Shown: positions 30,344-54,578 of the stretch, piece by piece
How positions within the stretch are numbered: the first letter of the stretch is position 1
How the letters are laid out: each line of letters opens with the position of its first letter
Assembly (NCBI GenBank): GCA_017654855.1
Contig: CM030332.1
Coordinates: forward strand, 6,448,001 to 6,512,000
Source: Podospora anserina
Lineage: Eukaryota
Direction of reading: 5' to 3'
DNA: 64,000 nt
Notes under the pieces: model-generated
The model's input: the letters and a program-made list of their open reading frames with translations, nothing else
What the model was told of the DNA's origin: nothing
Database searches by the model: none
Position numbers and translations under genes: made by a program

Positions 30344-30688
30344 CTTTTATGTGGTTCAATCGCAATATTTCCCGCTCTTGTTGCTTGTTTCCTCCAAATT
30401 CCCTGCTCAGTGCTGCTTCGCGGTCATGTCCTCCAGAAAATTTAAGTGGGGCTGTCGCAATGGAGCAGTGGGTTGTTGGAAAATGGAAATTTCACAGCAG
30501 GGATCCGGAGCACCGGGTCTTGGCAAGGCCAAACTTAGAATTCAACATCAGCTGCGCTGGCACGTGACCCCGAGCTCTACGGCAAAGAGCCGGGAAGTAC
30601 GCATTTCGTTAAAACCTCAATTCGCACTTGGCACTTGAGAGCTCCGTCAACGTCGAGCCGTCACCCACCCGATATTCCCATATTCACA

Positions 30689-31619: not shown

Positions 31620-32535
31620 ACAGCTAAATAGCTACCCCAGTCGAGTTTTGACCCAGATCGAGATTCCCTTTGTTGTACCAGTGTCCATACACACCCCTGT
31701 GCATTAGCCAATTCAAAACTTTTGACTTGTTCTTTTTTTGATGGCCTCGAGGTGCGCTTTTCGCTTATCATGAGCTTTTGTAGCTGTGGAAGAAGCTAGG
31801 AAAGGGTCGGCAGGTCCCTAAGGGTTGAGACCTCACAACTGCAAAACTGCAAGTCCATGTATTATTATGCTGGAACGCTGTCTCTAGTTGCACAGGGTCG
31901 GGTTAGATCAGACTTCTAGCTTTCGTTTCTAGAGATGTATGAGACTGCCCCTCACAGCACGATTTACATGGGATATGCGGGGGTTTTGCCCTCCATGTGT
32001 GATGTTTTGGAAAATAATGACTTCGTCCCAATTCAAACTACTTTGCAACCAAAGCTTGAGATTCCCATGAGATCAATGAGCTGTTCCTGAGCTCTTGAAG
32101 CTTGTGCCGGTAGTGCCCGTTACAAAACATGGGATTTGCCTTGCAGTCGGGTTGTTCAAGGTGGGGCTCTATGGCCCAGCAATTGATGACGGGGTCCTAG
32201 CACCGGCCAGCCAATCAGCTTCCAGAAGATTTTATTTTTCTGACTTCTTCAAAGTCCAAGCCGAATTGCGCCGTCTTCGAAAAAAGTTTGAGCCCACCCA
32301 CCTCCACGACGCCCACGACAAGCACGCCACGATAAACCAATTTCTGGATCGGAGACACCAGCACGACATTGCTTAAGCACTTCTCTACGGCGAAAAGCTC
32401 TCCAAAGCCCTATTCAGGCCATACGTCGTCGAACTCACTCAATGCCGTGCCGCATGTCGTAGACAGCGCGAGCTTCCTGCGACGGGTCTCTTCCCAGAGA
32501 TTGCGACGACTTACCATGCGATCTCCGCAGTCTCC

Positions 32536-34236
32536 GTGAACACCGGCAACCTGTATCTCCTTTTGGGCACCCGCCCGCAGCTGCGGGTGTTTGCGCAAAT
32601 ATCCTGCAGACACACACCATGGTTTCTCAATAACCATTTGGCGGGCCGGGGGGCCAGCCCACGGTTACGGAGAGGGGCATCGTCAAAGTCCCCGCCTGGG
32701 CGAGGATTTGAGCCCGATACAGACCACAGACGACGCCCAGCGCCTTTTTCTTCGGAACCGCCACCACGTTATGCGAAGCGTGCTGTTCTCCCAACACATC
32801 TTGGAATGCGGCCCGGCCCTTTCGCCGCCGGAAGACTGAAAATACCTCCAGCAGCGAAGCCTTTCAAACCGAGCGAGATGGAGGAACCCTCTGCGACTGT
32901 TGTCGAAACGGAAAAGGCCGACATTGAGGAACACAAAGAACCAACTAGCCAGACAACCGACCATGACGAGAACATAAAGGAGGCCGAGGTTAGAGTGGCA
33001 CCTACGGATCAAGAGGTCCAAGAACAAGACGTGGTAGCAGAGTCGAACCGAATCCTATCTCGAATAGCGATGTGGGACCAACAAGAACAAGCCGTGCCGG
33101 AATTTACGCCTGTGCCGGCAGACGATCTAGCACCGTCAGAACACATCCATGTTATGGGACTTGACCCTGTTGGCCGCTACATCACGCATATTTTGGCCAG
33201 CTGCGACCACATCCCTCCGGTGCGCTATGTGATGCACACCCCTGGTGTACACAATGTTTTCAAGCAGAATGATCGAAAGTTGACGCTTTACCGTGGCGAC
33301 CAGATGGTCACCACCAATCGGATCATCGCTGTGAATTTCAACCAAGGCGGCGATTATACGAGTCCGAAGCAATATGCGCTACCAAGCCTCATCAGTAATC
33401 TGATAATCACCACTCCAGCCGCTGACGTTGTTCGGATTTTGGAGCCGATCAAGCACAGGCTCGATCACAGGTCCACCATTGTCCTGATTAATGATGGCTT
33501 GGGTGTCGTCGAGGACCTCATCAAGACGTATTATCCTTCGTCCATTACTCGCCCAACTTTTATTCTTGGACAATTCACTGGAAAGTTGGGCTATACGGGC
33601 GAGCAATTCTCGGTGGAGGAAGTCGAGCTGGGCAGACTTCGCATGTCAATTTACCCCCAGCAGATTCAGCAGTCCGGTGTCCGCATCGTTCGCCACCCGC
33701 CGATCGAGCACACGTTGAAGCCAACGCGCCTCCTGAGGACACTGACTGTGATACCCGACTTGCGGGCGGCAGGCTTCCCCATGGATGACTTCTTCAAGAA
33801 GGCGTTGCCAACCATTGTCTTCCGATCCATTGTGGACCCTCTGACGGTTGTTCTCGACAGCACCTACGATAAGCTGCCGAAGAATGCGTACGCGAGGCTG
33901 GTCATGGACCAGCTTCTTAGTGAGCTCTGTGGGGTAATCTCCAGACTCCCAGAGGTCAGAGACTCTCCAGACTTCTCTCGGTTGACTGTCACACAGAGGT
34001 TGAGGAAGGAGATTTATCACAAGCTGGTGAGACAGCAGACTTCCAGCTCGAGGATGCGGTCGAATGTGGCTCGGGGCTGGGCTACCGATATCGATTACCA
34101 GACTGGCTACTTTGTCGAGCGTGGTCGGCAGCTGGGGTTGCGGGTCGAGAATCTCAACTCGCTCATTGCCGAGGTCAAGGCCAAGCAAAAGATCCAGATG
34201 GACAGGCAGAACATGCAGATACCTTTTCAACTGTGA
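32536..34236 (+). CDS. Ketopantoate-reductase-like (PanE/ApbA fold; Cbs2-like) protein, probably mitochondrial; start uncertain (first in-frame ATG at 32806)
   Basis: Degenerate Rossmann motif IHVMGLDPVGRYITH, STIVLINDGLG, and C-terminal SSRMRSNVARGWATDIDYQTGYFV, resembling the ApbA_C SSM..D...GR.TEID..NG motif. Confidence 0.75.
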   Translation: MNTGNLYLLLGTRPQLRVFAQISCRHTPWFLNNHLAGRGASPRLRRGASSKSPPGRGFEPDTDHRRRPAPFSSEPPPRYAKRAVLPTHLGMRPGPFAAGRLKIPPAAKPFKPSEMEEPSATVVETEKADIEEHKEPTSQTTDHDENIKEAEVRVAPTDQEVQEQDVVAESNRILSRIAMWDQQEQAVPEFTPVPADDLAPSEHIHVMGLDPVGRYITHILASCDHIPPVRYVMHTPGVHNVFKQNDRKLTLYRGDQMVTTNRIIAVNFNQGGDYTSPKQYALPSLISNLIITTPAADVVRILEPIKHRLDHRSTIVLINDGLGVVEDLIKTYYPSSITRPTFILGQFTGKLGYTGEQFSVEEVELGRLRMSIYPQQIQQSGVRIVRHPPIEHTLKPTRLLRTLTVIPDLRAAGFPMDDFFKKALPTIVFRSIVDPLTVVLDSTYDKLPKNAYARLVMDQLLSELCGVISRLPEVRDSPDFSRLTVTQRLRKEIYHKLVRQQTSSSRMRSNVARGWATDIDYQTGYFVERGRQLGLRVENLNSLIAEVKAKQKIQMDRQNMQIPFQL

Positions 34237-34704
34237 GTTCGCTCTTAGGTTTGAAGGGTAGTAGGGCGTCAAAAGGGGGTCATGTACAAATTATTAAAAT
34301 GTATATTATTGCATTGTATATTGGGTATAACTGTGTGCACATACACAACAATTGGGAGGTTAGATGTTAAAACGGGGAAAGGGGTTTACACACTGCATAT
34401 AGGGGGGTTTAAATAGCAATGAATTGGGTTTCTACTGGTTAAAACCTTGCAATACCTTAGAGTTGTTTCATAAGGTGCCTCAACTGCACAGCTGTTGGGA
34501 GCAACTGGTATACCTAATTGACTTTTACGTATTAATGGCTTGGGTGATTGAACCCCACCAAAATCTTTTGACCCCGCGATCGCGATAAACTGCTACGCTG
34601 CTACCACCCCCCCAAACCCTGGCATCATACCATTCGCATCCTTGCCCGCTCTACATACCTACAGCTTCATAACCAACCCGAATCCATATCAAACCACTGC
34701 CGAA

Positions 34705-35170
34705 ATGGAAGACGCCGAGCTCGAAAAGGTACCCTTTTATCCCTTTCTCCCACCATCGCATCAACCGACTAACCCCCCTACCCGTCAAACAGATCCGTAA
34801 GGCTCGCCTCGAACAGCTCAAATCCCAAAGCGGCGGCCCCTCCTCCCTCGGCAAAGCTGGCGGTGGTGGTAACGCAGGTCCCAGCAAAGAAGTCGAAGCC
34901 GAAGCCCGCAAGTCCATCCTCAACCAGATCCTCCACCCCGAAGCGGCCGACCGGCTGGGGCGAATCAGACTAGTCAAAGAGCAGCGCGCGACCGACGTCG
35001 AGAACAGGCTCATCATGCTCGCTCAGACGGGGCAGTTGCGGTCCAAGGTGACGGAAGAACAACTGAAGGAGCTGTTGAATGCGGTGGCGGACACGGAGAA
35101 GGAGGAGAAGATTGTTGTTGCGAGGAGGAAGGGGTGGGAGGATGATGATGATGACTTGTTTGATCTTTAA
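34705..35170 (+). CDS. PDCD5/TFAR19-family dsDNA-binding protein (Sdd2-like); exons 34705-34728 and 34793-35170
   Basis: MEDAELEK^IRKARLEQLK ... ILNQILHPEAADRLGRIRLVK ... VENRLIMLAQTGQLRSKV; missed by the ORF track. Confidence 0.92.
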
Positions 35171-35340
35171 GGGGGGACAAGGAGAGAGAGACGGCGGGGG
35201 GTGATGATAATGATATCCATTCGGTTTTGCCTCGACGGCATTGTTTGCGAATTCAACAAAAATTGATGATGATTTGAATCTCACAATGCTCATACAGTCA
35301 TATATATACAATCACACAAAAACACCATAATAGTACACAT

Positions 35341-36246
35341 CTACCCCCTCGCCGCCGCCTCCCGTCTCTTCTTCTCCTCCCTCTCCCGTCTCCTCATCTC
35401 CCTCAGATCAGCCGGCACCTCCACCCCCAACTCCTTCCTCAGCTCCCCCACATCCTTCTCGAGAACCTCCTCCCAATAAACATTAATCACCTCCTTCGCC
35501 CTCAGTCCATTCCTCACCGCCCAAGGCCCATACACGCCCCAGAACCTCTCCCGTTCCTTCTTCTTCATCCCCACAAGACTAAACACGCTCAGGCCCGTCA
35601 TCGGCAGCAACGTATTCGCAAACTCGAACGCCTTTAGCGCCACCTCACCCTCCCTCACAACGGGGAGTCCTGTCAAGGCGTGGTAAAAGTCGTGACATTC
35701 CCTGTATCGCTGCATGACATAGGCGCATTCCTCGTCGTCAATGTAGCGAACTGGCGAGCGGGTGTCGGGGGAGACGCCCTCGCGGTCAAGCCAGGAGATG
35801 TACGTGTGGCCGACTGTGTTGGGGGGCAAGGAGCGGAGGTAGGGGAGGTTGAGGGAGGTGGAGGTTATGCGGGGGCGGTCGCGGAGGATGCGGCGCCCGG
35901 TGGGGGAGGAGAGCATGGCGTCGCGGAGGCGGTAGATGAAGTAGGGAGTCGAGGTTGTCTCGGCGAAGGTGGCGATCAGGTCGCCTCGGCGGGGGTTCTT
36001 GAGGGAGATGAGGCCTGAGCCGATGGCCAGGGCGGTTTTCTCGACGAAGGAGAGGGGGACATGGCCTGGGTAGTTTGGTGGTGGGCGGGTTAGGGAGGAA
36101 AAGAGGGAGTATGGGCGGCGTTGCTGGGGGGTGGGGTTGTTGTTGTTGTTGTTGTTGGAGGGGTAGGTTGCGACGGGTCGGAGGGGTCGGAGGAGGGGAG
36201 TGGTTTGGCGGGCGAGGGCCGCGGATCGTTTGAGTGTCACCTCCAT
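35341..36246 (-). CDS. COQ4: Ubiquinone biosynthesis protein Coq4
   Basis: [27 protein letters not shown] motif, [12 protein letters not shown], and a mitochondrial presequence from the ATG at 36246. Confidence 0.96.
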
Positions 36247-36703
36247 GGCGGGTTGAAGGTGTAGAACCAAATGCGCATACTGGACTCCAGCCGGCGCAAT
36301 CGGTGAGGTCGGGGACGGGTGGTTCGATATCGGGAGCTGTCCGAAGCTCTCCGGAAAGTAGGACAGGGGTGTCTTTATCGATAAGGATCCAAGTGGTGAT
36401 AGCGATAAGGTTTTGCTAACATGTGGACTTGTGGAGCGATTCTGGGTGACTTCCGGACTGAGACAAGACCCCCCGAATTCATGGTTGAACCGGCGATTCT
36501 AGGCCGTAAGGTATTGACGAAAAGAGCAAAGGGATATGGAAATGTGTTCGGTGCTAGTCGGGAAAACCCAGGTGCATGTTTATGTGATTGTTTCACGTTC
36601 CCTTTCTTTTCGCTAGTTTGTTAGCATCAATGCAAAAAGCATTTCAGCCCCTGGCATTCCAAACTTTCTCACTTACACGTTGTAGCCATCGCAATTCATC
36701 AAC

Positions 36704-38120
36704 ATGGAGGCCTACGACGAACTTCTCCGCTGGACCAGCAAGCAAGGGATCGAGGTTCACGGTATCGAGGCCAAGAGGATACCCGGCAGAGGAATTGGCA
36801 TTGTGGCTTCGAAAGACCTGAAGGTACTATTCACTGACCTCCTAACATCATGGCTGAGAAGACAAAGGTGTAACAGCCATACGGGTCGATTGGTTTCTAA
36901 GCATTGTCGATTGGCATGTAGCATTTGAGCCCAGTCGACTATCTTCAGACGTGTTACCATTTTTCAGGCCCTCACATAAGCAAACAGTTTTCCTCCTCAC
37001 GTCTACGCATTTTACCTCCCTTTATACACACCAGGCTAACCTCTCCTAGGCCAATGAACGCCTCATATACGTTCCCGCCGCCTCCCTCCGCACCCTCACA
37101 ACCGTCCGCCCCGAAATCCGCAAGGCCCTCCCTCCACCAGCCCCCAAATACAAAGGAACCCCCGTCCATGCGCTCCTCGCAGCAGAGCTACTCCTCGAGA
37201 CCCCCACCATCAAGAAGAAATACGCCCCCTGGCACGCCGTGGTCCCAACTCGTGACGATATCCTGTCCACCCTCCCACTAGCCTGGCCAACATCCGACCA
37301 TGAGAAACTACACTCCCTCCTCCCCTACGCAGCCCGCGCTCACTTGACCAAGCAAAAAGCCAAATTCGAAAAGGATTGGCAGTTGACACGTGATGTCCTC
37401 CTTCCAAAACTGTCTCTCTCTCCCAAGGGTCGATATTCCAAGCAGGAGTTCCTGTATCATTGGCTGCTTGTCAACACGAGAACGTTTTACCATGAAACCC
37501 CCGCGACGGAGCGGCTGACAAAGGATGACAAGATGGCTCTGCAGCCGGTGGCGGATTTGCTCAATCATTCTGATGAGGGGTGTGAAGTGGTGTTTGATAC
37601 GGGGTGTTATACCATTTCGGCGGATAGGGAGTATAAACAGGGGGAGGAGGTGTATATTTGCTACGGGACGCACTCGAACGACTTTTTGATGGTGGAATAT
37701 GGGTTTTGTCCGGAGGAGAATAAGTGGGATGAGGTTTGTATTGATGAGGTGGTCCTGGAAGAAATGTCAACCGCAAGAAAGAAGTGGTTGGACGGGAGGG
37801 ACTTTTTGGGCAAGTATTTGATTGATGAGAGGAATTTGACGGGGTGTTATAGGACCAGAGTGGCATTGATGCTACTGTGCACGTCGAGGGGTCAATGGGA
37901 GAGGTGGGTTGATGAGGGAGAGGATGGGGGGGAGGAGGTGCAAAAAATGGTGGATCGGATTATGGTAAGGGTGTTGGAGAAGTATCTGAAAAGGTGTATG
38001 GAGGCGATTGGGGAGTTGGAGGGCTGTGGGCCGTCGGGGGAGATGGTGTTGAAGAGGTGGAGACAGATTGAGAGGTTGGTCGAGAAGTCTTTGGAGGAAT
38101 TAAAGGTTGAGGACAACTAA
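36704..38120 (+). CDS. SET-domain protein lysine methyltransferase (Rkm/Set11-like); exons 36704-36823 and 37050-38120
   Basis: Motifs GRGIGIVA, WLLVNTRTFY, PVADLLNHS and YICYGTHSNDFLMVEYGF. Confidence 0.9.
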
Positions 38121-39602: not shown

Positions 39603-40125
39603 ATGGTAAGAGCAACCTCTAATGGCCCTCTATGTAGAACGCTAACAAACCACTTCAACACCCCAGAAGATCACTCCGATCATAACCTTCCTCGCGGCCA
39701 TTACCCCTGGCACCATGTCCGCTCCGGCAACAAACAGAACCGCCGAGGGCATCAACGCACTCGAATTTCTCACCAAACGGCAAGCCGTCAGAGGCGACTG
39801 GACGTGCCAATTCTTCTTCGATGGTCCAGGCCATGACGCTCTCAGAGCCGATCACGCAGCCTTCAACAGACTGTTTGGCGGCCCTCGCCTTACCGCTCGT
39901 GGCGGACAGTGCTATGTTGGGAGGTGCAACGGACGCGACTTTGCGTGGTGCAACATTGCTTCAAACACACGTTCTGAGTACTCCAATCAGAGGAACCTCG
40001 TTGCGGATACAAACCCTTATAGCGGGATCAACTGCGTGTATGACTATATGCCTGCTTATGAGTACTACTGGTGGGGATGGGAGGGCGCTTTGCGGTTTGA
40101 TAACAGTGACATTCGCAGATGCTGA
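39603..40125 (+). CDS. Small secreted Cys-rich protein (~153 aa); ATG-only first exon 39603-39605, exon 2 39667-40125
   Basis: ATG^GTAAGA..GCTAAC..CAG^AAG gives MKITPIITFLAAITPGTMSAPA (signal-peptide-like), a pro-region ending LTKR, and a mature part with 6 Cys. Confidence 0.8.
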
Positions 40126-40245: not shown

Positions 40246-42354
40246 TCATGTGCTTCTCGCATCCGTCAAACAGTCCGCCAACAACCCCCTCGCCTCCTTC
40301 TCCCCTATAACTCCCACCTTCGGCATCCCCTTACCCAACCCCCCCTGCCCCGGCCACTCCTCCATCTCCCGTTCAAACTCCGTCATCCTCCTCCAAACAG
40401 TATCTCCATCCGCCTTAGAAAATCCTAGATCCACCCGGTACAAAAACCCCTCCAAATCAACAATCTCCACATCTCTCTCCTTTATTTCCCAATCCTGATC
40501 AAGCTTTACCCCCCCAGGTTTGACCACCCTAACAAGCGCATACCTCACCCAAGCAGCCTTCAAATCCGGCATCCAACTCATCCCCTCCCCTTCCGGCCCT
40601 TTATTCCCGACATCAACATGTATCCCTCTCTCCACGATCACGTTCCAACTCTCCTCTGGTAGTTCCCTCACTTTTGGTGGGTCAGGAGTATAGAAAGGGA
40701 GAGGGTCAACCTCCACCCTTGTTTTCTGGTCGACGGTTAGGGTGGGAGGACAGCAGGCGAAGCCCCATAGGGAAGTGCGACTATGGTGTTGTATATCGGT
40801 GGAGGTGAGCAAAGAGCGGAGATACATCAACAACCCAGCCGCAAACTTTTCAGGGGTGAGGAGGAGTGGGTTGAGGAAGTGGACTTGGGAAATGGGGGGT
40901 TGGCGGGGATGGTGTTGGGTTCGTTGGCGGAGGAAAAGATATTGGAGAGGATAGGGTGAATGAAGCCATGGGCGAGATACAACAGGGAGGAAAGGTTCGC
41001 CGATGAAAGGGGAGGAGTAAAGGCCGGAAATGTGTAATTTCTTAAAATGGGCTAGGGGTTTGCCTGGGTGGGTGGCGAGGGCGGAAAGGAAGGTCCTGTT
41101 GGGGGTGTCGGAAGTGCGGGTGGGTGATTGGAGAAGGTAGAGAGATTTGAGGGTTGGTCTTGTGAGGAGGGCGTCGATGATGGTGGTTGAGCTGTCGTGA
41201 AGGGTGTCAACGTTGAGACTGAGGGATACAGGTGGCGCCGGGGTGGTTTCGAGAGCAGCGATGACAGAGAGGGAGGAGAGCTTGTTAAAAGATACTAGAT
41301 CGAGATGTAGTTCGTTGGTAAAGGCAAGTCCGAGTAGTTGGCCTGTTTTGGGTAAGTGGCCTATGTCTTGGGAGCGCTTCTGTAGGTGTTGGCGAAGTAT
41401 AAACTTGGTGTGCGCTGTTCCGGTAAGTTGGGTAAGAAGAGTCTCGGATATTATATCAAGGTTTTGACTTTCAAGCAAAGCGTCGATGAGAGCGGTCAAC
41501 TCAGCGTCTTTCTCGGCCGGAAATAGGGAAAGGGCAGGCAAGACAGCGGTGGTCAGCGGCCATATCAGGTCCAAGACTGTCGGATCAATAAGTTCAACTT
41601 CGTCGAGCTTCTTCACCAGGTCATCGCAAGCCTCGTACTCAAATTTAGTCAGATACCCAGCGGCGGAAAGGGGTTCGCGTGTCCTATTTTCTTCTAGACG
41701 AAGCTCGCGCGGCCCTGAAGGGTCACTGTCTCCCCAGTCGTTGTATTCATCCACTTCTCGAGGGCGTTCTGATACGTGAATCATTACGGTTGACCGAAAG
41801 GCAATGATCCCATACCGGATTGCGTTCAACTCAGTGATGTCCACCACAGCCATCGCATACTCCATGTTTGTGTTGCTAAACATAGTACCCAGTGGTGCAG
41901 GCAGGACAGACAAGCCTACTCCGCGTTCCCTGTCAAAAGCCACGCCGAGCACAAGACATGTCGAGATAAACGGGAACTCGCGCACACCGCATTCCCACTG
42001 CGGAGAAATGGACTGCCTCATCCATGTTGGTGTGTTGGAGAGCTCTGTTCGATGCAGCCCATTTCTGGGATCTTGGTAGAACTGGGCGGCGAGCGAGAGT
42101 TCAGACTGGATACCGATGTGGTTCGATGGGTCAGAAAAGACAGTGACAGCACCCAGAATGGCTGAAAGGACATCTCTGCCTTGAACGGCATCCAAATCTA
42201 CTAGGCCGCCTTCGCGTTTGACGACTGCCAGAGGATAGTGTTGGCCTGTGCCGTTGAGGCCGAGTTTTGCGACGATGTAGACGACCAACGCATCTGGTGC
42301 TGCTGGCGTCTGGCTGTTGGCTTTCACCCAGTACGGTGTGAAGTTGGATGACAT
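40246..42354 (-). CDS. 702-aa uncharacterised intracellular protein; possible LRR-like middle region
   Basis: Long single-exon ORF with no signal peptide. Blocks FPFISTCLVLG and AVVDITELNAIRYG look conserved; LHLDLVSF..LSLNV..LKSLYLLQ spacing is LRR-like. Confidence 0.8.
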   Translation of the reverse strand: MSSNFTPYWVKANSQTPAAPDALVVYIVAKLGLNGTGQHYPLAVVKREGGLVDLDAVQGRDVLSAILGAVTVFSDPSNHIGIQSELSLAAQFYQDPRNGLHRTELSNTPTWMRQSISPQWECGVREFPFISTCLVLGVAFDRERGVGLSVLPAPLGTMFSNTNMEYAMAVVDITELNAIRYGIIAFRSTVMIHVSERPREVDEYNDWGDSDPSGPRELRLEENRTREPLSAAGYLTKFEYEACDDLVKKLDEVELIDPTVLDLIWPLTTAVLPALSLFPAEKDAELTALIDALLESQNLDIISETLLTQLTGTAHTKFILRQHLQKRSQDIGHLPKTGQLLGLAFTNELHLDLVSFNKLSSLSVIAALETTPAPPVSLSLNVDTLHDSSTTIIDALLTRPTLKSLYLLQSPTRTSDTPNRTFLSALATHPGKPLAHFKKLHISGLYSSPFIGEPFLPVVSRPWLHSPYPLQYLFLRQRTQHHPRQPPISQVHFLNPLLLTPEKFAAGLLMYLRSLLTSTDIQHHSRTSLWGFACCPPTLTVDQKTRVEVDPLPFYTPDPPKVRELPEESWNVIVERGIHVDVGNKGPEGEGMSWMPDLKAAWVRYALVRVVKPGGVKLDQDWEIKERDVEIVDLEGFLYRVDLGFSKADGDTVWRRMTEFEREMEEWPGQGGLGKGMPKVGVIGEKEARGLLADCLTDARST

Positions 42355-42664: not shown

Positions 42665-43237
42665 TCACTGGCCGCTCGACACAACCTTGATGACGATTCC
42701 GGTGGGCGTGTAACGATTGCTGACATAGGCAGTCGAATTATACATGGGGTTGGTTCTGTTAACCCTGACACCCAGCGAGCCACCGTCAGACAAGCACCCA
42801 ATAATGGCTTTCGCCTTTTGAGCATCCGTCGCTCCCACGCCGCCGTCGATCGTGGTGGCGACATCTTCGAAAAGGACGGCCGAATTGGCCGTATCGTTGA
42901 GGTGCTTGGCCGTGACCATGACGGAGCCACGTTGGTAAAGCGTCCATTCGTCACAAGTGCCGAGCTCAGCCGGGCCCATTGTCAAGAGCCGGCCAGCGCG
43001 GACCTGCCGACCATACGAGCGGAGGTAGGAGGCGACATATTTGATATCGTCTTCTGACACCTCTTGAGGGATGCCGCCGTTTTCCTCGGTGTAGCAGTAG
43101 AGGTTGGTGGTTTCACCTTCGTAGCAGACACGCCGATGAAGAGTTGGCTTGTTGCTGGGTGGGAGGGAGGCTACCATGGTGCCGCTGGCAGTGAGAAGAG
43201 CCAGGCTCAACTTAAGAAGAGTGGTGACAGTGAACAT
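42665..43237 (-). CDS. Small secreted protein (~190 aa, 4 Cys) with a dibasic HRR processing site
   Basis: ATG at 43237 gives MFTVTTLLKLSLALLTASGTMVAS (signal peptide), then PTLHRR^VCY; strong coding-like codon usage. Confidence 0.85.
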   Translation of the reverse strand: MFTVTTLLKLSLALLTASGTMVASLPPSNKPTLHRRVCYEGETTNLYCYTEENGGIPQEVSEDDIKYVASYLRSYGRQVRAGRLLTMGPAELGTCDEWTLYQRGSVMVTAKHLNDTANSAVLFEDVATTIDGGVGATDAQKAKAIIGCLSDGGSLGVRVNRTNPMYNSTAYVSNRYTPTGIVIKVVSSGQ

Positions 43238-44273
43238 TGTCGTGATTGAGGAGACAGTACTAAGCACAATAGCGAGTGTTTGGAAGGTGATGAGGTGGAT
43301 AGGATGATTCGAGTGCTTCAATGGCGCTTCTTCACGGTCATCTTATACCCACTCATTCACCAGTCAAATCACCATATAAGGTAACCCAGCACAAGTACAT
43401 TGTAATAAGGGAGGGTAATTTCTGCCTTGAGTGTTCTCTAATCGGTTCGAGCCATCAACGAGGCCATCGTCAATTTGCCATGACCTCCTGGGTGCCTGTT
43501 GCCACTCGGATCTTCCACCTAAAAGAGACTCTATTTTCAAGCGTTGGTCATTCATTCTAGTTATTTACGAGCTGTTGGGACATGGTTAAGTTCAAGATTT
43601 CAGCCCCGAATAAAATCCTATCAAATTGGTTTCCATACTAGGTGGGTTCTTTAGTCTTTCTGGAGGTCATCCATGCATGGACAGCTGCGGTCGTCTTGAC
43701 GCAGGAACATGGCGCAGACGGCCAGTATGTGAGGCCAACAAAAAGAGGCCCATAGTTTCGTCCGAACTTCAGAAATTGTAGTTGAATCAAGCATTGTAGA
43801 TTGCTTGGAAGATCTATTCACCTACCGGGTATATGACTACGGTCAGGTGGCCAGGCCGTTGGTAGCCCAGGGCATGAAGCAGCAATTTGCCACAACAACT
43901 GATAATGACGGTTAGATGGACTTTTTTGAAGTTGGTGATGGTCTGAGAAGCCATTGGGTGATAGACTCAACTGAATCTAGGGCGCCATTGGGCCAGAATA
44001 CGTTCAAGGCAAGCCATCTCATCTAGCCACGAAAGATGTATACCGAATCAGTATACACCGGCCGAAGACCTTGTGGCAGGATCATGATAGCCCAAGGCAG
44101 TTTCTTGTGAGGTCGTGATGGTGCTAACCATTATTTGGCCTGGGAAGAGTTGAGCGTCAAGATATCCCATTGCGTGCCACTTATAAGGAGCTCTTGTCCC
44201 TATACGATGATGTTGTGGAGTCTTCTTGGTCACCGCAACTCTCTTCACCTGTCACTCCTTTACAACGGTGAAG

Positions 44274-47200
44274 ATGCTGCTCTGCACGCTCTTTTCTCTG
44301 TTTCTTTACTTCAGATGTCTGAAAGCAGAATGGACCTATGCGGATCCAGAACGCTTTCCACATGTACCTGAATACGGACCCCAGGTGAGGGCTACCATTC
44401 TTGACAGTTTTGAAGCCTCTGACTAACCACTTCAGGCCAACTTTCCTTATATGGTTGACAACCAAAAGAACTATTATGGAGTAGCACCAGACAAGGGCAA
44501 ACAAAATGGCCCAGTCTGGAGATACAGCGAGAGCTTTGCCAAATACATGTCCAACCTCCGAGCCAACAAAGTCATTCGAGGTGGTTATGGTAAAGGACTA
44601 ACACCCGGAGCCGGGGACCGCCCTCAAAATCACCTCAATGGCACTCTAGGTTCAAATAGCACCCTATATCTCAACAACACCCGGACTCTGTTGAGCCGTG
44701 GCTCGGCCCCACTTCACAAGCGGGCTTCCGATTACTGGCTTACCACACTTGGTCCCTTGGGAATACAACCGCATGCTGGCGGAAGCAACTACAAGTTCTA
44801 CCGTGATGTTGTTGCTGATTACGGTGCTGACAACACTGGTGAGAGCGATGCTTCAGAGGCCATAAATGCCGCCGTAGAGGATGGCAACCGCTGTGGGCTG
44901 GAGTGTGGCAACACTTTCACTCAGGGAGCCATCATCTACTTTCCCGTGAGTACCTCGACTTCACCACTGATATCAGAAGATGGGAGACTGACACAACACA
45001 GCCGGGCACGTACAAAATCTGCAGCCCCGTTGTCCAGCTATACTACTCACAGTTCATTGGTGATCCGCACGATCCACCAACCATCAAGGGATGCAGGTCG
45101 TTCAAAGGAATTGCCCTCTTCGATGCTGATCCGTATATTCCCGGAGGGTATGTTGATATCTTTGACTCTTCGCTCCCAGCACATGAACTGACCGCCATAT
45201 AGGGGCGGCCAAAACTGGTACATCAACCAAAACCAATTCTTCCGTCAGATCCGGAACTTCATCTTTGACCTGACGGAGATGCCCATCTCCACGGCCGACA
45301 ATGACCAGCCCCTGGTTCCCACTGGTATTCATTGGCAGGTGTCGCAGGCAACTTCGTTGGAGAACTTGGTCTTCAACATGCCCAAAGCCACGGATGATGA
45401 AACGACAACTGCCGTGGGAATCTTTACCGAGAACGGGTCTGGTGGTTTTGTTGCTGATCTGGTATGTTTCGTTTGCAATGATTTCGGGGTGACAAAGCTG
45501 ACACCACTTTTTTAGACCTTCAATGGAGGAGCTATTGGTTGGCGTGCTGGGTCTCAGCAATACACGGCACGCAACCTGAAGTTTAACGGCTGCCTGACAG
45601 CCGTTCAGATGATTTGGGATTGGGGGTTTAACTGGCAAGGGGTAAGGCTCCCTCCTTTCTCAAGGCTCATTCCAGACATTCTCCAACTAACATTGCCCAC
45701 CTCAGATTGAAGTCAAAGACAGCGCCATTGCCTTCAACATCAGCGGCCGTGGAGGAGCCACAGGACAAGGCATTGGCTCCATCTCGGTAATCGATTCCTC
45801 CATTACCAACACTCCAATCGGCATCCTGACAAACTCCCACGAACAATCCCCCAACATCGTTCTCGATAATGTCAAGATCTCCAACGTCGCCCAAGTCGTT
45901 CAAGTGGACAACGGTCCCTCCCTTCTCTCCGGCACATCTGACACCGCAACCATTGACCTCTGGGCCCACGGCCGTCGCTACAATGGGGACAAGGGGTCAT
46001 CCGAGACCGGACCCGTGAAAGCCCCTTCTAAAGCCGCCGGGTTGTTGGGAGACGACAAGAAGCTGTTCACCAAGTCTCGCCCTCGATACGCCGACTTTAG
46101 CCCCGAAAACTTCCTTGTTGCTACCAAAGAAGGCATCAAGAACGATGGCACCGGCGATCAGACCCTCGCTATCAACGCCTTCTTGCTCAAAGCCAAGGCC
46201 AACAGCCAGATTGCCTATTTCCCGGCAGGTATTTACCAGGTGGGCGGGACAGTGTTTATCCCCACGGGCAGCAGAGTGGTTGGTTCCAGTTGGTCGCAGA
46301 TACAAGGGAGCGGGTTTTACTTTGCTGATATGAACGCCCCGCGGGTGATGGTTAGGGTTGGAAACAGGGGAGACTTGGGAACGATGGAGATTACGGACAT
46401 GCTGTTCACGGTCAAGGGGGCGACGGCGGGTGCAATTTTGGTGGAATGGAATGTTGCTGGGGATGAGCAAGGAGCTGGTGAGGATTCCTCCTTTTCTACC
46501 TGGCGATGTCCGTACTAATCTAAACTTGGTATGCTGATAGCTGGCATGTGGGATTCGCATGTGCGTGTGGGAGGCGGCATAGGGACTGACCTTGACATCG
46601 ACAACTGTCCCAAGGGTGGTTTCAACGATCAATGCATATGCGCGTCTATGCTCCTCCATGTGACTGCACAGGCCTCGGGGTACTTTGAGAACGTCTGGGT
46701 TTGGGTAGCAGACCAGTGAGTACTGATCTATTTTCGGATGGACACTTCAAGACTAACCGACGTGCAGTGACAATGACATGGTTGTCTATGACTCTCCTGA
46801 CAAGCTCATCAACCAGATCAGTCTTTATGCCGCGAGATGTACCTTGATTGAGTCCCAAGAGCCGACATGGTTCTATGGCACTGGATCAGAACACTGCGTC
46901 ATGTATCAGTACCAGTTGAACAAGGCGAAGAACGTCTACCTCGGCCATATTCAATCGGAGACGCCTTACTATCAGCCCAACCCTGTGGCACCTTACCCAT
47001 TCGATGGCGCGAGGCCCATGGCGGCAGACCCGTCGTTTTTGGAATGCACCACGGACAGCTGTAAAGCTGGCTGGGGTCTGCGCATCATTGACTCGGAGAA
47101 CATCACTATTCACGGGTCTGGGTTGTACAGCTTCTTCCAGGACTACTATCAGGACTGTCTCGAGACGTTTGACTGCCAGGACAAGATTCTGGAAGTCAAA

Positions 47201-50200
47201 GGATCGAAAAATGTGGCCATCTTCAACCTCTTCACTGTAGGGACGGTCAATATTGCCTCGGGTATTGAGTGAGTCTGTTGGACCTGATGTTGCGGTCGAG
47301 CTTCATACTGATGCCACTCACCTAGCGACACGAATATCTTTAGGAATGAATCTAACCAACGGTAAGTCAAATTCGTCGGCTACCCAACAAGAAGGAAATA
47401 TCAGCAGGCTAACAAGAGATAGCGGTTTCACCACCGAGGTCAGTGTTTGGCTTCCCTTGGACGGCTCTGACAATATCAGTGTTGTATATGTCGGTCCGGA
47501 GATCTGGGACAGACCAACGGCTGCCTGCTCGCCGCCTTGCGTTCTCGTATTACCCACGAGCACCCTGGGCCAAGACACCACCATATCTCCGTCTGAATAC
47601 ACCACATCGCTGGAATACGGTCGCCAGGGCTCTTCAACCGGCCCCGGGGGACAGGTTATCACGACTTTTTATACCACTACAACCACCATTACTATCACTG
47701 TACCGCCCATTACCATCCCGAAAAATAGTGGCCTGCCTTACTCCAATGTCAACGTCACGCGAGGGCAGGGCGGAGGCGGCTTCATAGCGACCCCCAGAGT
47801 TGAGATCCCGCCCATTGGAGTTCCTCTCCCTGATGGCAATGGCGGCACCACCACCCGTCAAGTATTCCTTCCGCCCTGGCCTGATGTCAACCGCGGTCCG
47901 CCAGAGGACTGGGAGTATGATGGACCATGGGGTAATCCTAGCCCTATCCCGAGTGGCGGCGTCGGCCAGGCTTTCCACACCCCGTGGTCGACGATGGTAA
48001 CGGCCTCCGCGGCTACGGTCACGACCTTGACATTTCCGGCCATTGTACACCCACAGACATACCAGTGTCCTCCGTCAAGCGAGATATCCTTCAACACACC
48101 TCGCATGACTCTCACGGTAGACTGTCCTACTCCGACAGAGTTCAAGTTTGGGTTCTCGTGCCCAACAACAAAGGTGGTGACGTTTCTGGGACCGTCTGCG
48201 GGTGTGTTTACAGTTGACTGCACTGTATCATCAGTTTGGGACTTTCCTCGATTCCCGGAGCCAACACCTGGCCCTTCGGAATCAACAACCAGTGACGAGC
48301 CTCTCCCAGTGTGGACTACGTGGCCGCCTGGAGAGATCACGCCCGTGGAGAGAGAAGTCGAAGAGTCAGAGCCCGAGGATGACGGTACTTTCACATCTTG
48401 CAAGCTTTGGTTTTTCTTTTTCTGCATTCGCTGGGATAATATCAAGATTGGGGGGTGGAAGTGGACGTTGCCGCCTGGTATCTATCCTCCGTAAGTTGCT
48501 TCTTCATATCGAATCTCTAGACGAGATCTGAGAACTAACATGGCAAAACAGAGGGCCTCCGCCGCCCTTCATAAAGTTTCCCTTCAAGGTTGAAGGCACA
48601 CTGCCGCCATGGCCAGAAATCACCATTGGCCGTGACAGGAAACTTACATACTCCAACGAACCTACGAGCTGCACCACCAAGTCGGCATCGCTCTGCACTA
48701 CAACAACCATCTTCTCTGTGACCAAGATTGCAGAAGACTCAACCCGGACAACAGCAACCGCCACCTCGCGACAGTGCGAGACGGTCAGGGGCTGCGATGT
48801 GACGGACCAGAACACGAGGACTGTGTCGACTGCGATAGAGTCGTGCACGCCAAAGCCGAGAGTAAAAGCCCGAGACGGCGATGATCCCAGTCTTTTGAAC
48901 CCACGACAGAACGGCAACGGCAATAGCTGCGGCAAGAATGCCATTGTGTATCCCAAGGATCCCAAGAGCGCGGGCGATATTCCGTCCTTGCTCAGCGCGT
49001 ATGCCGGAAAATACGAGACGATCGGCGTCCCGGAGTTGAACATTGTCGGTTACTGGTGGGTGCCTCTGTTAGACGAGGAGACCATGAAGAGGTTGAAGAG
49101 TTCACCCTTTGTGAACGACGCCTACTATTACCAAGACTGGAACAATGCTGGCAATGGGCCAGACAGGTCAGGGAATATCAACGGTGAGATGGCGCTACCC
49201 GCTCATTCCGAGGGTATTACTCACGATGATGACGGTTGGACGTCGCTCGCGTCTCCTCTGTTCAAAAGAGCCCGCACGACTACGGCCACGAATTTTTGGG
49301 CGTCATCTATCGTGTCGCTCCCCAAAGGCTGGAACTGGCGAGAAGCGGGTACAGATTCATACGACTACAGCAATCTTGCCAATCCCTATCTGTATCAGTG
49401 GGATGACCAAGGAGGAAGCACGGAACACACCATCTACGTGACGGGCGAGGCGAGGGTGTGGACCGATCATCCCGAGTTCAAGGCATCCGAGGGATTTCAG
49501 GGTGAACTCGATATCGTGCTTCCAGGAGGCAAATACGACGTCGAAAACGACAAGGCAGATGCCTTTCATGGCACCTGTGTCGCTGCATATGCCATCGGAG
49601 CGAAGCTGGGTATCTGCAAGAAGTGTCGAGGTGTTTGGTTCGAGACGAAGCTATGGTCTACCGATGACCCCTATTTCAACCCGAACTTTGTACGCGAGCG
49701 CGGCATTGCCCATCTGATGGCCGCGTTTCGAGATATTCATCTCAGGGGAAACGCAAAGAAGGCAGTCATCAACATGTCGTGGTCGTACCCTCCGGGGAGG
49801 GCCATTCCGGCCACCCTCCAATCTACCCACTGGGTCTTGACCGAACTGGACAAAATGGGTGTTGTGCTTGTGGCTTCATCGGGTAACCACGCACACGATG
49901 AGGGCAGGGAAATCAGCCGGTTTCCAGCTCGCTTCGCCAGTTCAGACAAGAAAAGAAACCCTTACGGAGAGATAAAGAACCTCATTGTGGTCGGTGCCAC
50001 TCAAAACATCGGTATCGAATACACCAGGGGCCAGACATCCAATTACATGACCACCTTCGCCCCGGGCGAAAACGTCCCATGCACCAGCGACCCCAACGCC
50101 GCAGGCGACAAGTATTCCAGAAATATGGCGTCTGGCACCTCAGCAGCAGCGCCTCAGGTTGCGGGTTTGGCGGCCTACTGGCGCTCTCTTCCGTCTAAGT

Positions 50201-51438
50201 GGCAGACGCAGCTCGAGGAGCCAGCCAATGTCAAGAAACTGATTCGGCTTTTCCACCGAAGATATGGCTTTTGGAACGCTCAGAGGGCAAAGAACTTTCC
50301 CATCTTGGCTCAGAGTAAGCCGGTAATCTGGAACGGCCAAGTCAAAGACAAGAACTGTCTCGTTGATTATGACACTCGCCAAACTTGGGACACCACCAAG
50401 GCCTGTCCAGACATTCCTGACCGGCTCAGCACCCTCCCTGAGAACCCTGGTGAGTCGGTAAACTGCAACAATCCGGCACCTCCACCCAACAGCAAAAGAC
50501 AAGCCGGCAGCGGTGGTAGCTGTCCTTTTACCCCCGGCGGCTCCGGCGCAGAAAAGTCCATTGACTACCAGCCCAAACCCACACCCTCCCCAACCTGCCA
50601 GTCCAACAACTGCGGCGGCAAGCTCTGTACCGGGTTCTTCTGCCGACCAAAGCCATCCGGTATCCCGCCCGATTATATGGACCCCAAAGATCCCAACGCC
50701 GGCAACCCCGTCCCTGTCACCCACATCCCGGGTCCTAACAAACCGACCACCACCCGTGGCGGGGGTGGCACACCTACCCCTTCCCCGGAATGTGACGACA
50801 AGTGCAAGCTTGACCGTGGCAACCCCTGCCGATGCGGCGACACTGGTTGCGATGAACAGTCTCCTGCGTGCTGCCACAATGCCTCCTGTCCCAAGTGTGA
50901 CTGTCCCAAGAACGGGGATGGGTGCTCCAAGAACTCGCCAGCTTGTTGTGCGAGTGGGACTTGCCAGTGGCAGTATACCGGTGGCGGAGGGGGCCTGGAG
51001 CCAAACCCAGTTGATGAGCCCGACAGTGGCGCCAACAGAGTTGCTTCACCACCATCGTCGACGGAGACGGTGACGGAGGATCCCGAGCATGTTGATGCCG
51101 TGTATGAGATTTATTCGGAGAGGGATGCGAAGGGAGGGTTTGTGGTTAGTGGGTTTAGCGGGGATGTTAACGGGACGGTTGTTGGGATGGGCGGTGTGGA
51201 GCCGGATTGGGTGATGAGTGGGAATGGGACATCGGGATTGGAGACGAGCTATAAGGGGGTTGTGGCGTATGGGAGACGGTGTGACTTTTTGGCGGGGAGT
51301 GTGAATGGGTATGAGGGAATGGAGAGGCCAGGGATGGTGGTTGGGGCGCTGACTTGTGAGGGGGTCGCGCCGGCTGTTTGTGTCAGGGGAGAGGGAGGAG
51401 GGGAAGTGAGGGAGGAGTTGGTTTGTAGGTGGGAGTAG
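44274..51438 (+). CDS. Secreted multidomain protein, ~2196 aa, 11 exons: GH55 exo-beta-1,3-glucanase + Thr/Pro/Cys linker + S8 subtilase-like domain + Cys-rich C-terminus. Exons 44274-44384, 44436-44945, 45002-45147, 45203-45461, 45516-45641, 45706-46477, 46541-46715, 46768-47268, 47326-47361, 47423-48490, 48552-51438
   Basis: All 10 introns are GT-AG, most with recognisable branch sites, and phases join into one 6591-nt frame. GH55 motifs: NWYINQNQFFRQIRNF, GIHWQVSQATSL, MWDSHVRVGG, IQSETPYYQP. S8 motifs: HGTCVA, VINMSW, ASSGN, SGTSAAAPQVAG. Confidence 0.88.
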
Positions 51439-51756: not shown

Positions 51757-53835
51757 CTAATAGCTCCAAGGCCTCCTCCCCAACCTCTCGTTCTCCTCCG
51801 GCCTCCCCTCTTTGGGGATCTCAGTCTCATCCTCATTCAAATACCAACTCGGATCACCCCCTCTCTTCCCCTCCTCCGTTACAGTCTGGGTCACACTCCA
51901 CCCATTCCCCAACCACCCCAGTCTATTATTCCCATCTTCCAACCCCTCATAGTCATAGTCCTCCCACCTCGGACTCCTGAGCGTCTCCAAAGCATGGAGC
52001 GTGCTCCCCGGCCAGAGACCGACGATCCTATCCCCCCTCTTGTACCAGGAATGGCACTTGTCCATGTAGACCGTGTTCTTGAAGTACGCCTGGGTGTAGG
52101 ACTCGAAATCGGCGACGCGTTCGGGTTTGGGCTCGATGGAGGCGTAGTCTTCTTTTTGGAGCTTGCGGATGTAAGAGGTTAGGTAGTCGACTAGGGCTTC
52201 GAGGATTTTGGTGAGGGAGCCGAAGCCGATGGCGGAGTTGGGGCCGAAGAGGAAGAAGAGGTTGGGGAAGTTGTGGGTTGTGATTGAGAGGTAGGTTTCG
52301 GGGTGGTGGAACCAGTGTTGGGATAGGGTGAGGGAGTTGCGCCCTAAGAGGGGGAAGGGGGGTGCGGTGCCGACGTTGAAGCCGGTGGCGCAGATTATGG
52401 CGTCGAATTCATGGTGGGAAGAGGGAGAGGTGACGATGCCAGTGGGGGTGATGGATGTTATGGGGGAGGGGATCACGGTTACGTTTGGCTCGAGGAGGGA
52501 ATCCAGAAATCCGGGGCCGGGGGTTACGCGACGGCAGCCGGGGGCGAAGGTGGGGATTATGAGCCGGAGTAAATCGGGGCGGGAGGAGAGTTTGGCTGTC
52601 ATGGACGAGTGGAAGAAGGCTTGGGAAGAGATCTGGTCGGGGTGGGAGAGGAGGGTAGTTGACTGGATTGTGTTGCCTAGGTCTTCAAAGACTTTGCGGA
52701 ATTTGAGGAAGAGTTGAGGGTCGGAGCGGAGGGTGGATTTTTGCTCTTCAGAGACTGGAAACATATCAGATCTGGCCCAAAAGGGGGGAGGGATCGATGG
52801 ATATACATTTTGTGACCTTGGGGTCGAAGCCGAGTTCTGCCATGCCTTGGTCACCGAATTCCGGAGAAATCCACGTTGGCGAGCGCATGAAGCATTTCAG
52901 CTGGGTACCCGGGATCTTTTGGAGCTGGGGGATGATTTGAATAGCGGAGGAGCCGTTGCCTATGACTCCGATGCGTTTGTTGCTAAAGTCGTAGCTCGTG
53001 TCCCAGGCCCCAGAATGCATTATTTTGCCGGTGAAGGTGTCCAGGCCGGGGATGGAGGGCCAGGAGGGTTCGCTGAGCTGGCCGCGGGCTGTGACGAGGA
53101 TGTTGGCGCTGTCGGTGAAGGTCTCGCCGGTTGTTATATTGTGGACTTTGACGTTCCTTTGCCAAACGTTAGTAAGGTGATCGAACCGGAAGGGGAGGGC
53201 ATTTTGTCAATCTGCTGATGCGGCGAAAGGGCAATGTGTTAACGTGCTAATGTGGAAAAGGGGGCAAAAACACAAACCATTTTTTGGCCACGTTATCCCA
53301 TTCACCACCTTCCACTCGATGACTGAGTTTGATGAATCTCATTGCCCCAAAGCGGGTAGCTACATCTTCAAGATACTCCCGTATCTCGCCACCAGGGGCA
53401 TAAAGCGCGCTCCAGTTGGGGTTTGGGGCGAAGGTGTACTGATAGGAGTATGCTGTCTTTTGTTGGCTGCCATTCTTGGTGGTACGAGAGCAACTGACTT
53501 ACAAGGAACATCACAGGCCACCCCGGGATATCTATTCGCATGCCTGGACTTGTTGGACAACAGAACTTGAGATCAGGTATATGGAGGACTTACCACACTC
53601 CCCCAACACCATCCGCCTTCTCATACACCACCAATTCCACATTTCTCAGTCGCTCGGGGATCCTAATCGCAGCCAGTATCCCGGAGAATCCAGCGCCAAC
53701 AACGATAACTCGAAGCGGACGGAGATTTTCAACAGGTGTATCCTTCAAAACGAAAGGCCTAGGCTCATGACCATTGACGCCATTGCCATTGACGGCATGT
53801 CCATTCAACCCGTTAGGCTCCGCAGAGAGTGTCAT
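51757..53835 (-). CDS. Flavin-binding (Baeyer-Villiger-type) monooxygenase; exons 53835-53594, 53543-53503, 53452-53278, 53156-52807, 52754-51757
   Basis: Motifs VVGAGFSG, GGVWHANRYPGVACDVP, FTGKIMHSGAWD, IGNGSSAIQ, CRRVTPG and CATGF. Confidence 0.93.
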
Positions 53836-54578
53836 TGTATGATATAGAAGGTTTCAAAACAAACTAAGGTACCTTGAGTAGAGATCATCGACGAAAGCAA
53901 CAATACAATCAACAACGCACAAGACACCATCTATATAAACTAGACTTCCATCCTTTGAGTGGGTGTCCTCATATATCCCTACATATATCCACCACCAACA
54001 CCCAACACGCAGAAGCATATCCGACAGTTAGGTTCGGTACACAGGTTACACAACCGGTGACCCTCACATAAAACACGATCAAACTATTGATGCGTCCCCA
54101 TAACCAACATGGTGTGGCAACCAATGGAACTTGTGGGTGGTCCTATATGCTTGGGATACCAACGGCCCAAAATGCTTCCTCATCATTGTGCCGAACAGTG
54201 CGTGACAGGTGATATGTCACCACCACCTTCATAGTCGTGCGGAGTAATGAGGAGGTGAGGGGCCCTCGATCCATCAAAACTCGGCAGTCAATATCGTGCC
54301 GGCAACAGACAGCCGGGAATAAGCAAGCTTGCCACATGTAGTTGGAGACAAGGCTGGTACAAATATTCTTCAATTCCTCTCTAGCTATGTACTTTTGCTT
54401 TTTCTTGCTCTATAATCCAACATCGTCACGACTCGAGGTCGTTGACGGGTAACTCCAGGCTCTCCTGAACAGAACAAAAGAAACAAAAGGGTATCGATGC
54501 CTGCTAAGAACAAATTGCAAAGAAAAGAAATGGCGGGTCTAACGTATCAGTCAGAGCAGCGCAAGGCACGCATCGTCA

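What the first reader, a model, noticed from the sequence alone, without database searches (positions are those of the whole stretch)
44274..51438. Single ~2196-aa GH55 glucanase-subtilase fusion that the ORF track splits into many pieces
Exon phases join GH55 (catalytic-region motif QSETPYYQP intact) to a Thr/Pro/Cys-rich linker (CKLWFFFFCI..W..GGWKWTLPPGIYPPGPPP). An I9-like pro-segment, an S8 domain and a Cys-rich tail follow. Typical fungal GH55 enzymes are about 750-800-aa stand-alone proteins. Joining a glucanase and a protease suggests combined attack on glucan and wall protein.
Basis: partly seen in the sequence, partly recalled or inferred. Interest (0 to 1): 0.75.

Follow-up and report, generated by a model that had tools for sequence, protein, structure and literature searches.

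The report
Fungal glucanase-protease paired with toxin-fold gene
A real, very large secreted fungal protein that joins a wall-digesting glucanase to a protease; such fusions are common in moulds, and the less expected point is that the gene repeatedly sits head-to-head with a small gene shaped like a known antifungal killer toxin.

Summary
The gene model holds: 11 exons, 10 GT..AG introns, 2196 aa, no stop. RNA-like contigs of two studies splice the GH55 end to the linker, and a relative carries the fusion in one stop-free frame. It is Podospora anserina Pa_1_17690, already filed as one GH55 protein, and it is not rare: 35 of 44 long relatives carry GH55 plus S8. The same linker and S8 also follow GH18, GH71 and SGNH/FG-GAP heads. 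S8 His, Asn and Ser are kept, but Glu mostly replaces the catalytic Asp. A GH55-type gene faces its relatives in 11 of 13 distinct metagenome loci with room, with or without S8. Both genes are induced in vegetative incompatibility. Best reading: a processed wall-breaching precursor co-secreted with a KP4-fold antifungal protein, zymocin-like in logic but not a zymocin. No activity or binding is shown.

The parts
44274..51438 (+). GH55-linker-I9-like-S8-tail gene, 2196 aa. Exons 44274-44384, 44436-44945, 45002-45147, 45203-45461, 45516-45641, 45706-46477, 46541-46715, 46768-47268, 47326-47361, 47423-48490, 48552-51438
   Evidence: two junctions in RNA-like contigs; matches public PODANS_1_17690 cluster
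44274..44729 (+). Hydrophobic N-terminus (probable signal peptide, inferred; no signal predictor was run) and pro-region ending in KR at aa 132-133
   Evidence: hydropathy 1.33 over aa 1-19 and KR list; same exon 1 in P0358
44724..47450 (+). GH55 beta-1,3-glucanase domain, about aa 134-888; conserved Glu741 (46889-46891) and Glu764 (46958-46960)
   Evidence: near-identical P0358 aa 135-885 vs PDB 5m5z E 3e-179 and 3eqn E 1.4e-171; Glu columns. That these are the catalytic-site Glu of PcLam55A is recalled
47451..48850 (+). Conserved Thr/Pro/Cys-rich linker module, about aa 889-1335, shared with GH18-, GH71- and SGNH/FG-GAP-headed proteins; no Pfam family
   Evidence: 47-56% mean identity among GH55-headed relatives
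48925..49155 (+). I9-like pro-domain, about aa 1360-1436
   Evidence: AlphaFold model; span of 3qfh match; no Pfam hit
49264..49269 (+). Lys-Arg site before the mature protease (candidate Kex2 site)
   Evidence: KR/RR in the matching window in 35 of 44 rows
49270..50346 (+). Proteinase K-like S8 domain: Glu1534 (49447) at or one residue after the usual Asp, His1574 (49567), Asn1680 (49885), Ser1765 (50140)
   Evidence: fold Z 32.5, rmsd 2.4, 271 aligned to 5z6o; columns; profile alignment to 8gko and 5z6o
50494..51438 (+). Second Lys-Arg site, conserved Cys-rich segment, then a variable C-terminal Cys-containing domain
   Evidence: no Pfam hit
42665..43237 (-). Head-to-head neighbour, 190 aa, four invariant Cys, KP4/Ecp2-like fold (Pa_1_17685); 1036 bp between the two start codons
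   Evidence: RNA-like contigs cover part of it in all 4 runs
40246..42354 (-). About 700-aa gene without a signal-like start, downstream of the small gene; taken by gene order to be Pa_1_17680; possible third member
   Evidence: ORF; homolog in the same place in L013 and L040; only weak LRR-like leads

Best explanation
A two-gene secreted antifungal module. Shown: one large gene (GH55, conserved linker, pro-domain, S8, Cys-rich tail) facing a small KP4-fold gene across about 1 kb, the pairing kept across several fungal orders, both induced in the non-self cell-death reaction. Inferred: the two share a promoter region; the large precursor is secreted and cut at Lys-Arg sites by Kex2 into GH55+linker, protease and tail; GH55 opens the beta-1,3-glucan of a neighbouring fungal wall; the S8, using Glu-His-Ser, trims wall or precursor protein and is an optional helper; the KP4-fold protein then reaches the target cell and inhibits growth. 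The logic is that of killer-toxin chitinase clusters, with a glucanase in place of the chitinase and a KP4-fold protein in place of the ribonuclease.
For: Pairing: GH55-type gene upstream on the opposite strand in 17 of 20 metagenome loci with 1.9 kb or more upstream, 11 of 13 after merging near-identical loci; consecutive accessions or locus tags in Hypoxylon (2 species), Coniochaeta, Rhexocercosporidium, Xylaria (4 isolates), Colletotrichum cereale, Cordyceps javanica, Rosellinia, Pseudogymnoascus, Cercophora, Triangularia and Podospora species. Fold: the top four of 48,161 chains are Zt-KP4 (Z 8.4, rmsd 3.0, 101 aligned), Y3 (6.8), UmV-KP4 (6.3) and a mushroom lectin (5.9); Atlas 0.96 to Ecp2-like clusters. 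Zt-KP4-1 inhibits fungal growth (PMC12382754, passages). Expression: Pa_1_17685 28.5-fold and Pa_1_17690 7.9-fold in incompatibility; the only induced GH55 of 7. Module: same linker after GH18 heads, among them LysM/chitin-binding ones of the killer-toxin-like kind; GH18 heads at three places on the S8 tree. Dibasic site before S8 in 35 of 44 rows against 0-14% in 15 of 16 control windows.
Against: No activity of either protein was measured. The fold is shared with lectins (ranks 2 and 4), Z 8.4 is near the tool's chance ceiling of 7-8, identity is 11%, and Foldseek gave no match at E <= 0.001. The small protein is strongly conserved (mean column identity 48-52%), unlike a fast-evolving toxin. 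About a fifth of genes are induced in incompatibility (Table 6 passage) and 10 of 25 subtilisin-domain genes are; the GH18+S8 gene Pa_5_10820 is not. No Onygenales small-gene relative was listed (81 hits; 120 of 216 shown). The three other linker-S8 loci of this genome have no detectable copy of the small gene within the 20 kb fetched for each.
Confidence: 0.5

Rival explanations
1. Self-directed wall remodelling or recycling: the enzyme digests the fungus's own dying hyphae in incompatibility or autolysis, and the KP4-fold neighbour is a glycan-binding accessory or protector of the GH55, as LysM-only proteins are for group C chitinases.
For: Induction is in a self-lysis condition; little response to bacteria (one value, 1.74, for Pa_1_17690 and none for the small gene); lectins share the fold; the small gene tracks the GH55 head, not S8 (L022, L032 group, L041/42); a LysM-type gene faces the GH18 paralog in L007 (recognised by eye).
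Against: The best fold match is a growth-inhibiting KP4 protein; the gene sits in a patchy island-like locus; 6 of 7 GH55 genes are not induced.
Confidence: 0.25
2. One reading: a bifunctional digestive enzyme whose tethered glucanase and protease act together on glucan-protein wall material for food; the neighbour is incidental.
For: GH55 Glu residues and S8 His/Asn/Ser are conserved; all exchanged heads are hydrolases.
Against: Dibasic sites would untether the domains; S8 is absent from intact relatives such as L022; the neighbour is kept head-to-head in 11 of 13 distinct loci.
Confidence: 0.17
3. The S8 is a self-processing or dead domain that only releases or holds the variable C-terminal domain, which is the real effector (a polymorphic-toxin-like layout).
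For: The canonical Asp is lost in most rows; the C-terminal domain falls into one group of 19, small groups of 3 and 2, and 12 singletons among 36 tails clustered; L022 and P0034 share a different tail type.
Against: His, Asn and Ser are each kept in 43 of 44 rows and an acidic residue in 36 of 44 at the next column; the tails match no Pfam family; some singletons are truncated models.
Confidence: 0.06
4. Two separate genes or a modelling artefact.
For: Junction 48490>48552 was not seen in RNA-like contigs.
Against: Spliced GH55-to-linker contigs; stop-free fusion frame in L013 and no early in-frame ATG for a separate S8 gene; 35 of 44 relatives fused.
Confidence: 0.02

Closest known systems
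Fungal GH55 beta-1,3-glucanases (PDB 5m5z, 3eqn/PcLam55A)
   Same: Whole domain aligns at E 3e-179 and 1.4e-171 with the SEH and QxETPY motifs.
   Different: The solved chains are 752-758 aa; here about 1300 aa follow.
Proteinase K-like S8A subtilases (PDB 5z6o, 8gko, 2prk)
   Same: Fold Z 30-32.5; HGT, GN and GTS motifs; I9-like pro-domain.
   Different: Y-x-x-G/N-E instead of Y/I/L-D-T/S-G (motif from PMC5371821 passages); embedded in a multidomain precursor. It is not the DxExG subgroup of PMC5567314 (section 13).
Zymocin-like killer toxin clusters of Pezizomycotina (10.1101/2024.10.25.620242; PMC13556262)
   Same: Large wall-hydrolase precursor beside a small secreted gene, sometimes a third non-secreted gene; proteolytic processing.
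   Different: Head is GH55, not group C-II GH18; the small protein models as a KP4 fold, not an anticodon nuclease; an S8 is built in. Neither text holds 'glucanase' or 'protease'.
KP4/Ecp2 (Hce2) structural family (PMC12382754)
   Same: Fold match of the neighbour to Zt-KP4 and UmV-KP4; four Cys.
   Different: No PF14856 or PF09044 hit at E <= 1; 8-11% identity; longer; in described cases Hce2 is fused to GH18 chitinases, here it is a separate gene facing a GH55.

Membership tests
GH55 | Full-length homology to solved GH55 enzymes (two beta-helix halves) | tested here: met
   (on P0358, same 90% cluster); PF12708 stretches
GH55 | Conserved Glu in SEH and QxETPY motifs | tested here: met
   Glu741 and Glu764; Glu in 36 and 37 of 44 rows, 7 of which have other heads
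GH55 | Hydrolysis of beta-1,3-glucan | not testable with these tools
   needs assay
S8A subtilase | Subtilisin fold | tested here: met
   Z 32.5, rmsd 2.4, 271 aligned to 5z6o
S8A subtilase | Catalytic His, Ser and oxyanion Asn | tested here: met
   43 of 44 rows each
S8A subtilase | Catalytic Asp in a D-T/S-G motif | tested here: not met
   TGE here; Glu 31, Asp 5 of 44 at the next column; profile needs a one-residue gap against 8gko and 5z6o. Whether Glu contacts His was not measured
S8A subtilase | I9 pro-domain | tested here: inconclusive
   no Pfam hit; compatible model and one spanning match
Zymocin-like killer toxin cluster | GH18 group C chitinase as alpha/beta precursor | tested here: not met
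   head is GH55
Zymocin-like killer toxin cluster | Neighbouring gamma-toxin ribonuclease | tested here: inconclusive
   neighbour models as a KP4 fold; no gamma-toxin sequence was compared
Zymocin-like killer toxin cluster | Immunity gene | not tested
   the third gene was not compared with known immunity proteins; it recurs in 2 of 36 loci
KP4/Ecp2 structural family | KP4 fold | tested here: met
   pLDDT 85.9 model; Zt-KP4 Z 8.4 and UmV-KP4 Z 6.3, unrelated rows 4.0 or less; moderate strength
KP4/Ecp2 structural family | Pfam Hce2 (PF14856) or KP4 (PF09044) match | tested here: not met
   0 families at E <= 1
KP4/Ecp2 structural family | Inhibits fungal growth | not testable with these tools
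   needs assay

The most novel reading that the evidence does not exclude
An undescribed, widespread class of mould killer system: a glucanase-headed, Kex2-processed carrier built on an exchangeable-head linker, with a Glu-His-Ser subtilase and a polymorphic C-terminal domain, that delivers a separately encoded KP4-fold toxin, with the adjacent intracellular gene as immunity factor in some lineages.
Probability: 0.2. Interest if true: 0.8.

Novelty: new variant of a known kind. Interest (0 to 1): 0.52.

Why it matters
It gives a testable job to a 2000-aa protein family that databases file only as 'GH55' or 'pectin lyase-like', and to an unnamed KP4-fold family of 200 or more members. If right, killer-toxin logic in moulds is not limited to chitinases and ribonucleases. 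P. anserina is a tractable, harmless model with expression data, so the idea can be tested by two deletions. A working Glu-His-Ser fungal subtilase would be of separate enzymological interest. The fusion alone is ordinary enough: common and already recorded.

Tried and rejected
Complex prediction of the GH55 domain (P0358 aa 134-895) with the small protein (P0371 aa 36-190): no answer, score 0.00, alignments not used; no evidence either way. Only this one interface was tried. No run on record as RNA was listed; the contigs are shallow, and the lack of cover over 43656-46795 and across 48490/48552 is not read as evidence. Pfam names nothing for linker, pro-domain, tail or small protein. Foldseek alone gave no significant match for the small protein. 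The Atlas gave only unnamed clusters for the third gene. A profile of the small family found nothing in 60 kb around three paralogous loci; the genome search finds 1 copy. Earlier scan findings: nothing in 4 look-ups. Literature: ten searches, judged from listings, showed no paper on a GH55-S8 fusion or on this gene pair; gene names had 0 full-text hits and none in the PMC9801653 supplements. Muszewska et al. 2011 (MBE) is not held; I recall that it lists fungal subtilases with extra carbohydrate-active domains, so the architecture may be in print there. Rejected: two separate genes; membership of the DxExG subgroup; membership of zymocin clusters. A disulfide tie to a carrier looks unlikely because the small protein has an even four Cys (inference).

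Full report
Observation. The region is a fungal multi-exon gene. Ten GT..AG introns of 51-64 nt with branch sites join 44274-51438 into a 2196-aa frame, and keeping any intron gives an early stop. Of four runs laid, all shallow contigs whose RNA label is the tool's guess, X2 and X5 (two studies) skip 47269-47325 and 47362-47422, which joins the end of GH55 to the linker exon; the last junction was not bridged. Independent of any gene model, metagenome locus L013 carries the GH55, linker and S8 motifs in one stop-free frame of 1702 codons, and the first in-frame ATG of the last exon lies at 49084, inside the pro-domain. The single-gene reading is therefore secure.

Identity and spread. The last exon matches P0001 at 100%, a Podospora anserina protein named GH55 whose cluster holds PODANS_1_17690. 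Of 44 relatives of 1683 aa or more, 35 carry PF12708 plus PF00082, 2 only PF12708, 5 GH18 plus S8, 1 GH71 plus S8 and 1 SGNH/FG-GAP plus S8. A search with the linker exon gave 162 representatives; I scanned 43 long ones of the 150 listed and found 13 GH18, 8 PF12708, 3 GH71, 1 FG-GAP, 6 S8 only, 1 unrelated and 11 with no family. On a FastTree of 50 S8 domains, midpoint-rooted and not tested for monophyly, GH18 heads fall at three places, one as sister of a GH55 protein with support 1.0. This genome has three more linker-S8 loci, two with GH18 and one with GH55 heads. So the unit is a linker-S8-tail chassis with an exchangeable hydrolase head.

Catalytic anatomy. The GH55 domain spans about aa 134-888 with both motif Glu residues. 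The S8 model has pLDDT mostly above 90 over the domain and matches proteinase K-like enzymes at Z 30-32.5. His, Asn and Ser are each present in 43 of 44 alignment rows. The Asp column is mostly Gly or Asn, and the next column is Glu in 31 and Asp in 5; the profile aligns to 8gko and 5z6o with a one-residue gap there. I infer a Glu-His-Ser site; geometry was not measured. KR or RR stands before S8 in 35 of 44 rows and after it in 22; 15 of 16 control windows show 0-14% and one 52%. Kex2 cleavage is inferred from established knowledge of dibasic sites. The domain after the conserved Cys-rich segment varies.

The neighbour. A 190-aa gene with a hydrophobic start lies on the opposite strand, 1036 bp from the large gene. 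The Atlas places it with Ecp2-like clusters (0.96). Its model (pLDDT 85.9) matches Zt-KP4 (Z 8.4), Y3 (6.8), UmV-KP4 (6.3) and a lectin (5.9), with DUF26/Gnk2 domains below; the signal is moderate. Relatives have accession numbers or locus tags next to GH55-S8 proteins in fungi of several orders, but those pairs were largely chosen by matching contig length. The less biased test is the metagenome scan: 36 loci, 20 with at least 1.9 kb upstream (a cut chosen after seeing the table; three loci with 1.8 kb show no hit), of which 17 have a GH55-type gene upstream on the opposite strand; 11 of 13 after merging near-identical loci. S8 is seen in L013, L017/19 and L043; L022 has GH55, linker and tail in one 1517-codon frame without S8; L023/24 and L025/30 keep only the end of GH55 with the linker. 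The small gene thus tracks the GH55 side, and S8 is optional. A homolog of the third gene follows the small gene in L013 (33%) and L040 (62%) only.

Expression. In the supplement table of PMC3689799, Pa_1_17680, Pa_1_17685 and Pa_1_17690 are classed as induced in incompatibility, with maxima of 9.5, 28.5 and 7.9. Pa_1_17690 is the only induced GH55 of 7, and the table lists both its superfamily domains. Against over-reading: about a fifth of genes are induced, 10 of 25 subtilisin-domain genes are, and the GH18+S8 gene is not. With bacteria only one value, 1.74, is listed (PMC4835503 supplement).

Mechanism. Shown: gene structure, domain order, motif conservation, head exchange, conserved head-to-head pairing, co-induction. 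Inferred: secretion, Kex2 processing, protease activity through Glu, antifungal action of the small protein and cooperation of the two products. I put 0.5 on an antifungal wall-breach-plus-toxin module, 0.25 on self-remodelling with a lectin-like accessory, 0.17 on a plain digestive fusion, 0.06 on a tail-delivery device and 0.02 on an artefact.

Comparison and novelty. It works like the killer-toxin chitinase clusters but fails their membership test on the head domain. Papers seen: 10.1101/2024.10.25.620242 (first fifth of the text and passages); PMC13556262 (passages); PMC12382754 (passages); PMC3689799 (passages and supplement file 3; file 1 could not be searched); PMC4835503 (supplement rows only); PMC5567314 (passages and section 13); PMC5371821 (passages); PMC9801653 (supplement search only); others as listings only. 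Ten searches, named under Tried and rejected, showed no description of the fusion or the pair, but Muszewska 2011 was unavailable and domain-architecture supplements of the subtilase surveys were not read, so the fusion itself may be in print. Verdict: real, common and uncharacterised; new variant of a known kind; interest 0.52, carried mainly by the gene pair.

Noticed in passing
window 47996: G>A difference in contigs of X1 and X2 (depth under 3, one study), changing Met1069 to Ile; probably a strain variant or error.
   Followed up: no
window 44274-44435 and 47269-47422: Public P. anserina-group models start at Met43 and mis-splice exon 9, which would hide the signal-like start; the 2013 table lists no signal peptide for this gene.
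   Followed up: yes
window 39646-40125 (+): Short Cys-containing ORF with a KR site, converging on the 700-aa gene; no Pfam hit; may be another small secreted protein of this island.
   Followed up: no
window 51757-53853 (-): Convergent multi-exon gene that looks like a flavin monooxygenase (recognised by eye; the one exon scanned had no Pfam hit).
   Followed up: no
L006:3634-9999 and L007:1-4351 (G000:C6 about 546-557 kb): GH18 + LysM + linker + S8-like gene with a divergent LysM-like gene; its S8 Ser region looks altered or split over frames.
   Followed up: partly
L008:4576-9836 (G000:C1 about 180-185 kb): Second GH55 + linker + S8-like gene, with patchy matches in several frames; multi-intron or decayed.
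   Followed up: partly
L010:8770-9999 and L011:1-4866 (G000:C6 about 4.693-4.699 Mb): Chitin-binding + GH18 + linker + S8 gene with YLIESG at the acidic position and GTSFAAP intact.
   Followed up: partly
L022:4076-4468 and C-terminus of P0034: Alternative C-terminal domain starting C-F-x-E-x-D-F-P-G-H, shared by a GH55 without S8 and one with S8; no Pfam family.
   Followed up: partly
G000:C5:1008689-1010704 (L050, L051): One paralog of the 700-aa third gene, 28-34% identical.
   Followed up: no
window 28712-38120: Housekeeping-like genes left of the island (resembling NOC4, ATP synthase subunit b, COQ4, a SET-domain protein; names recalled by eye).
   Followed up: no
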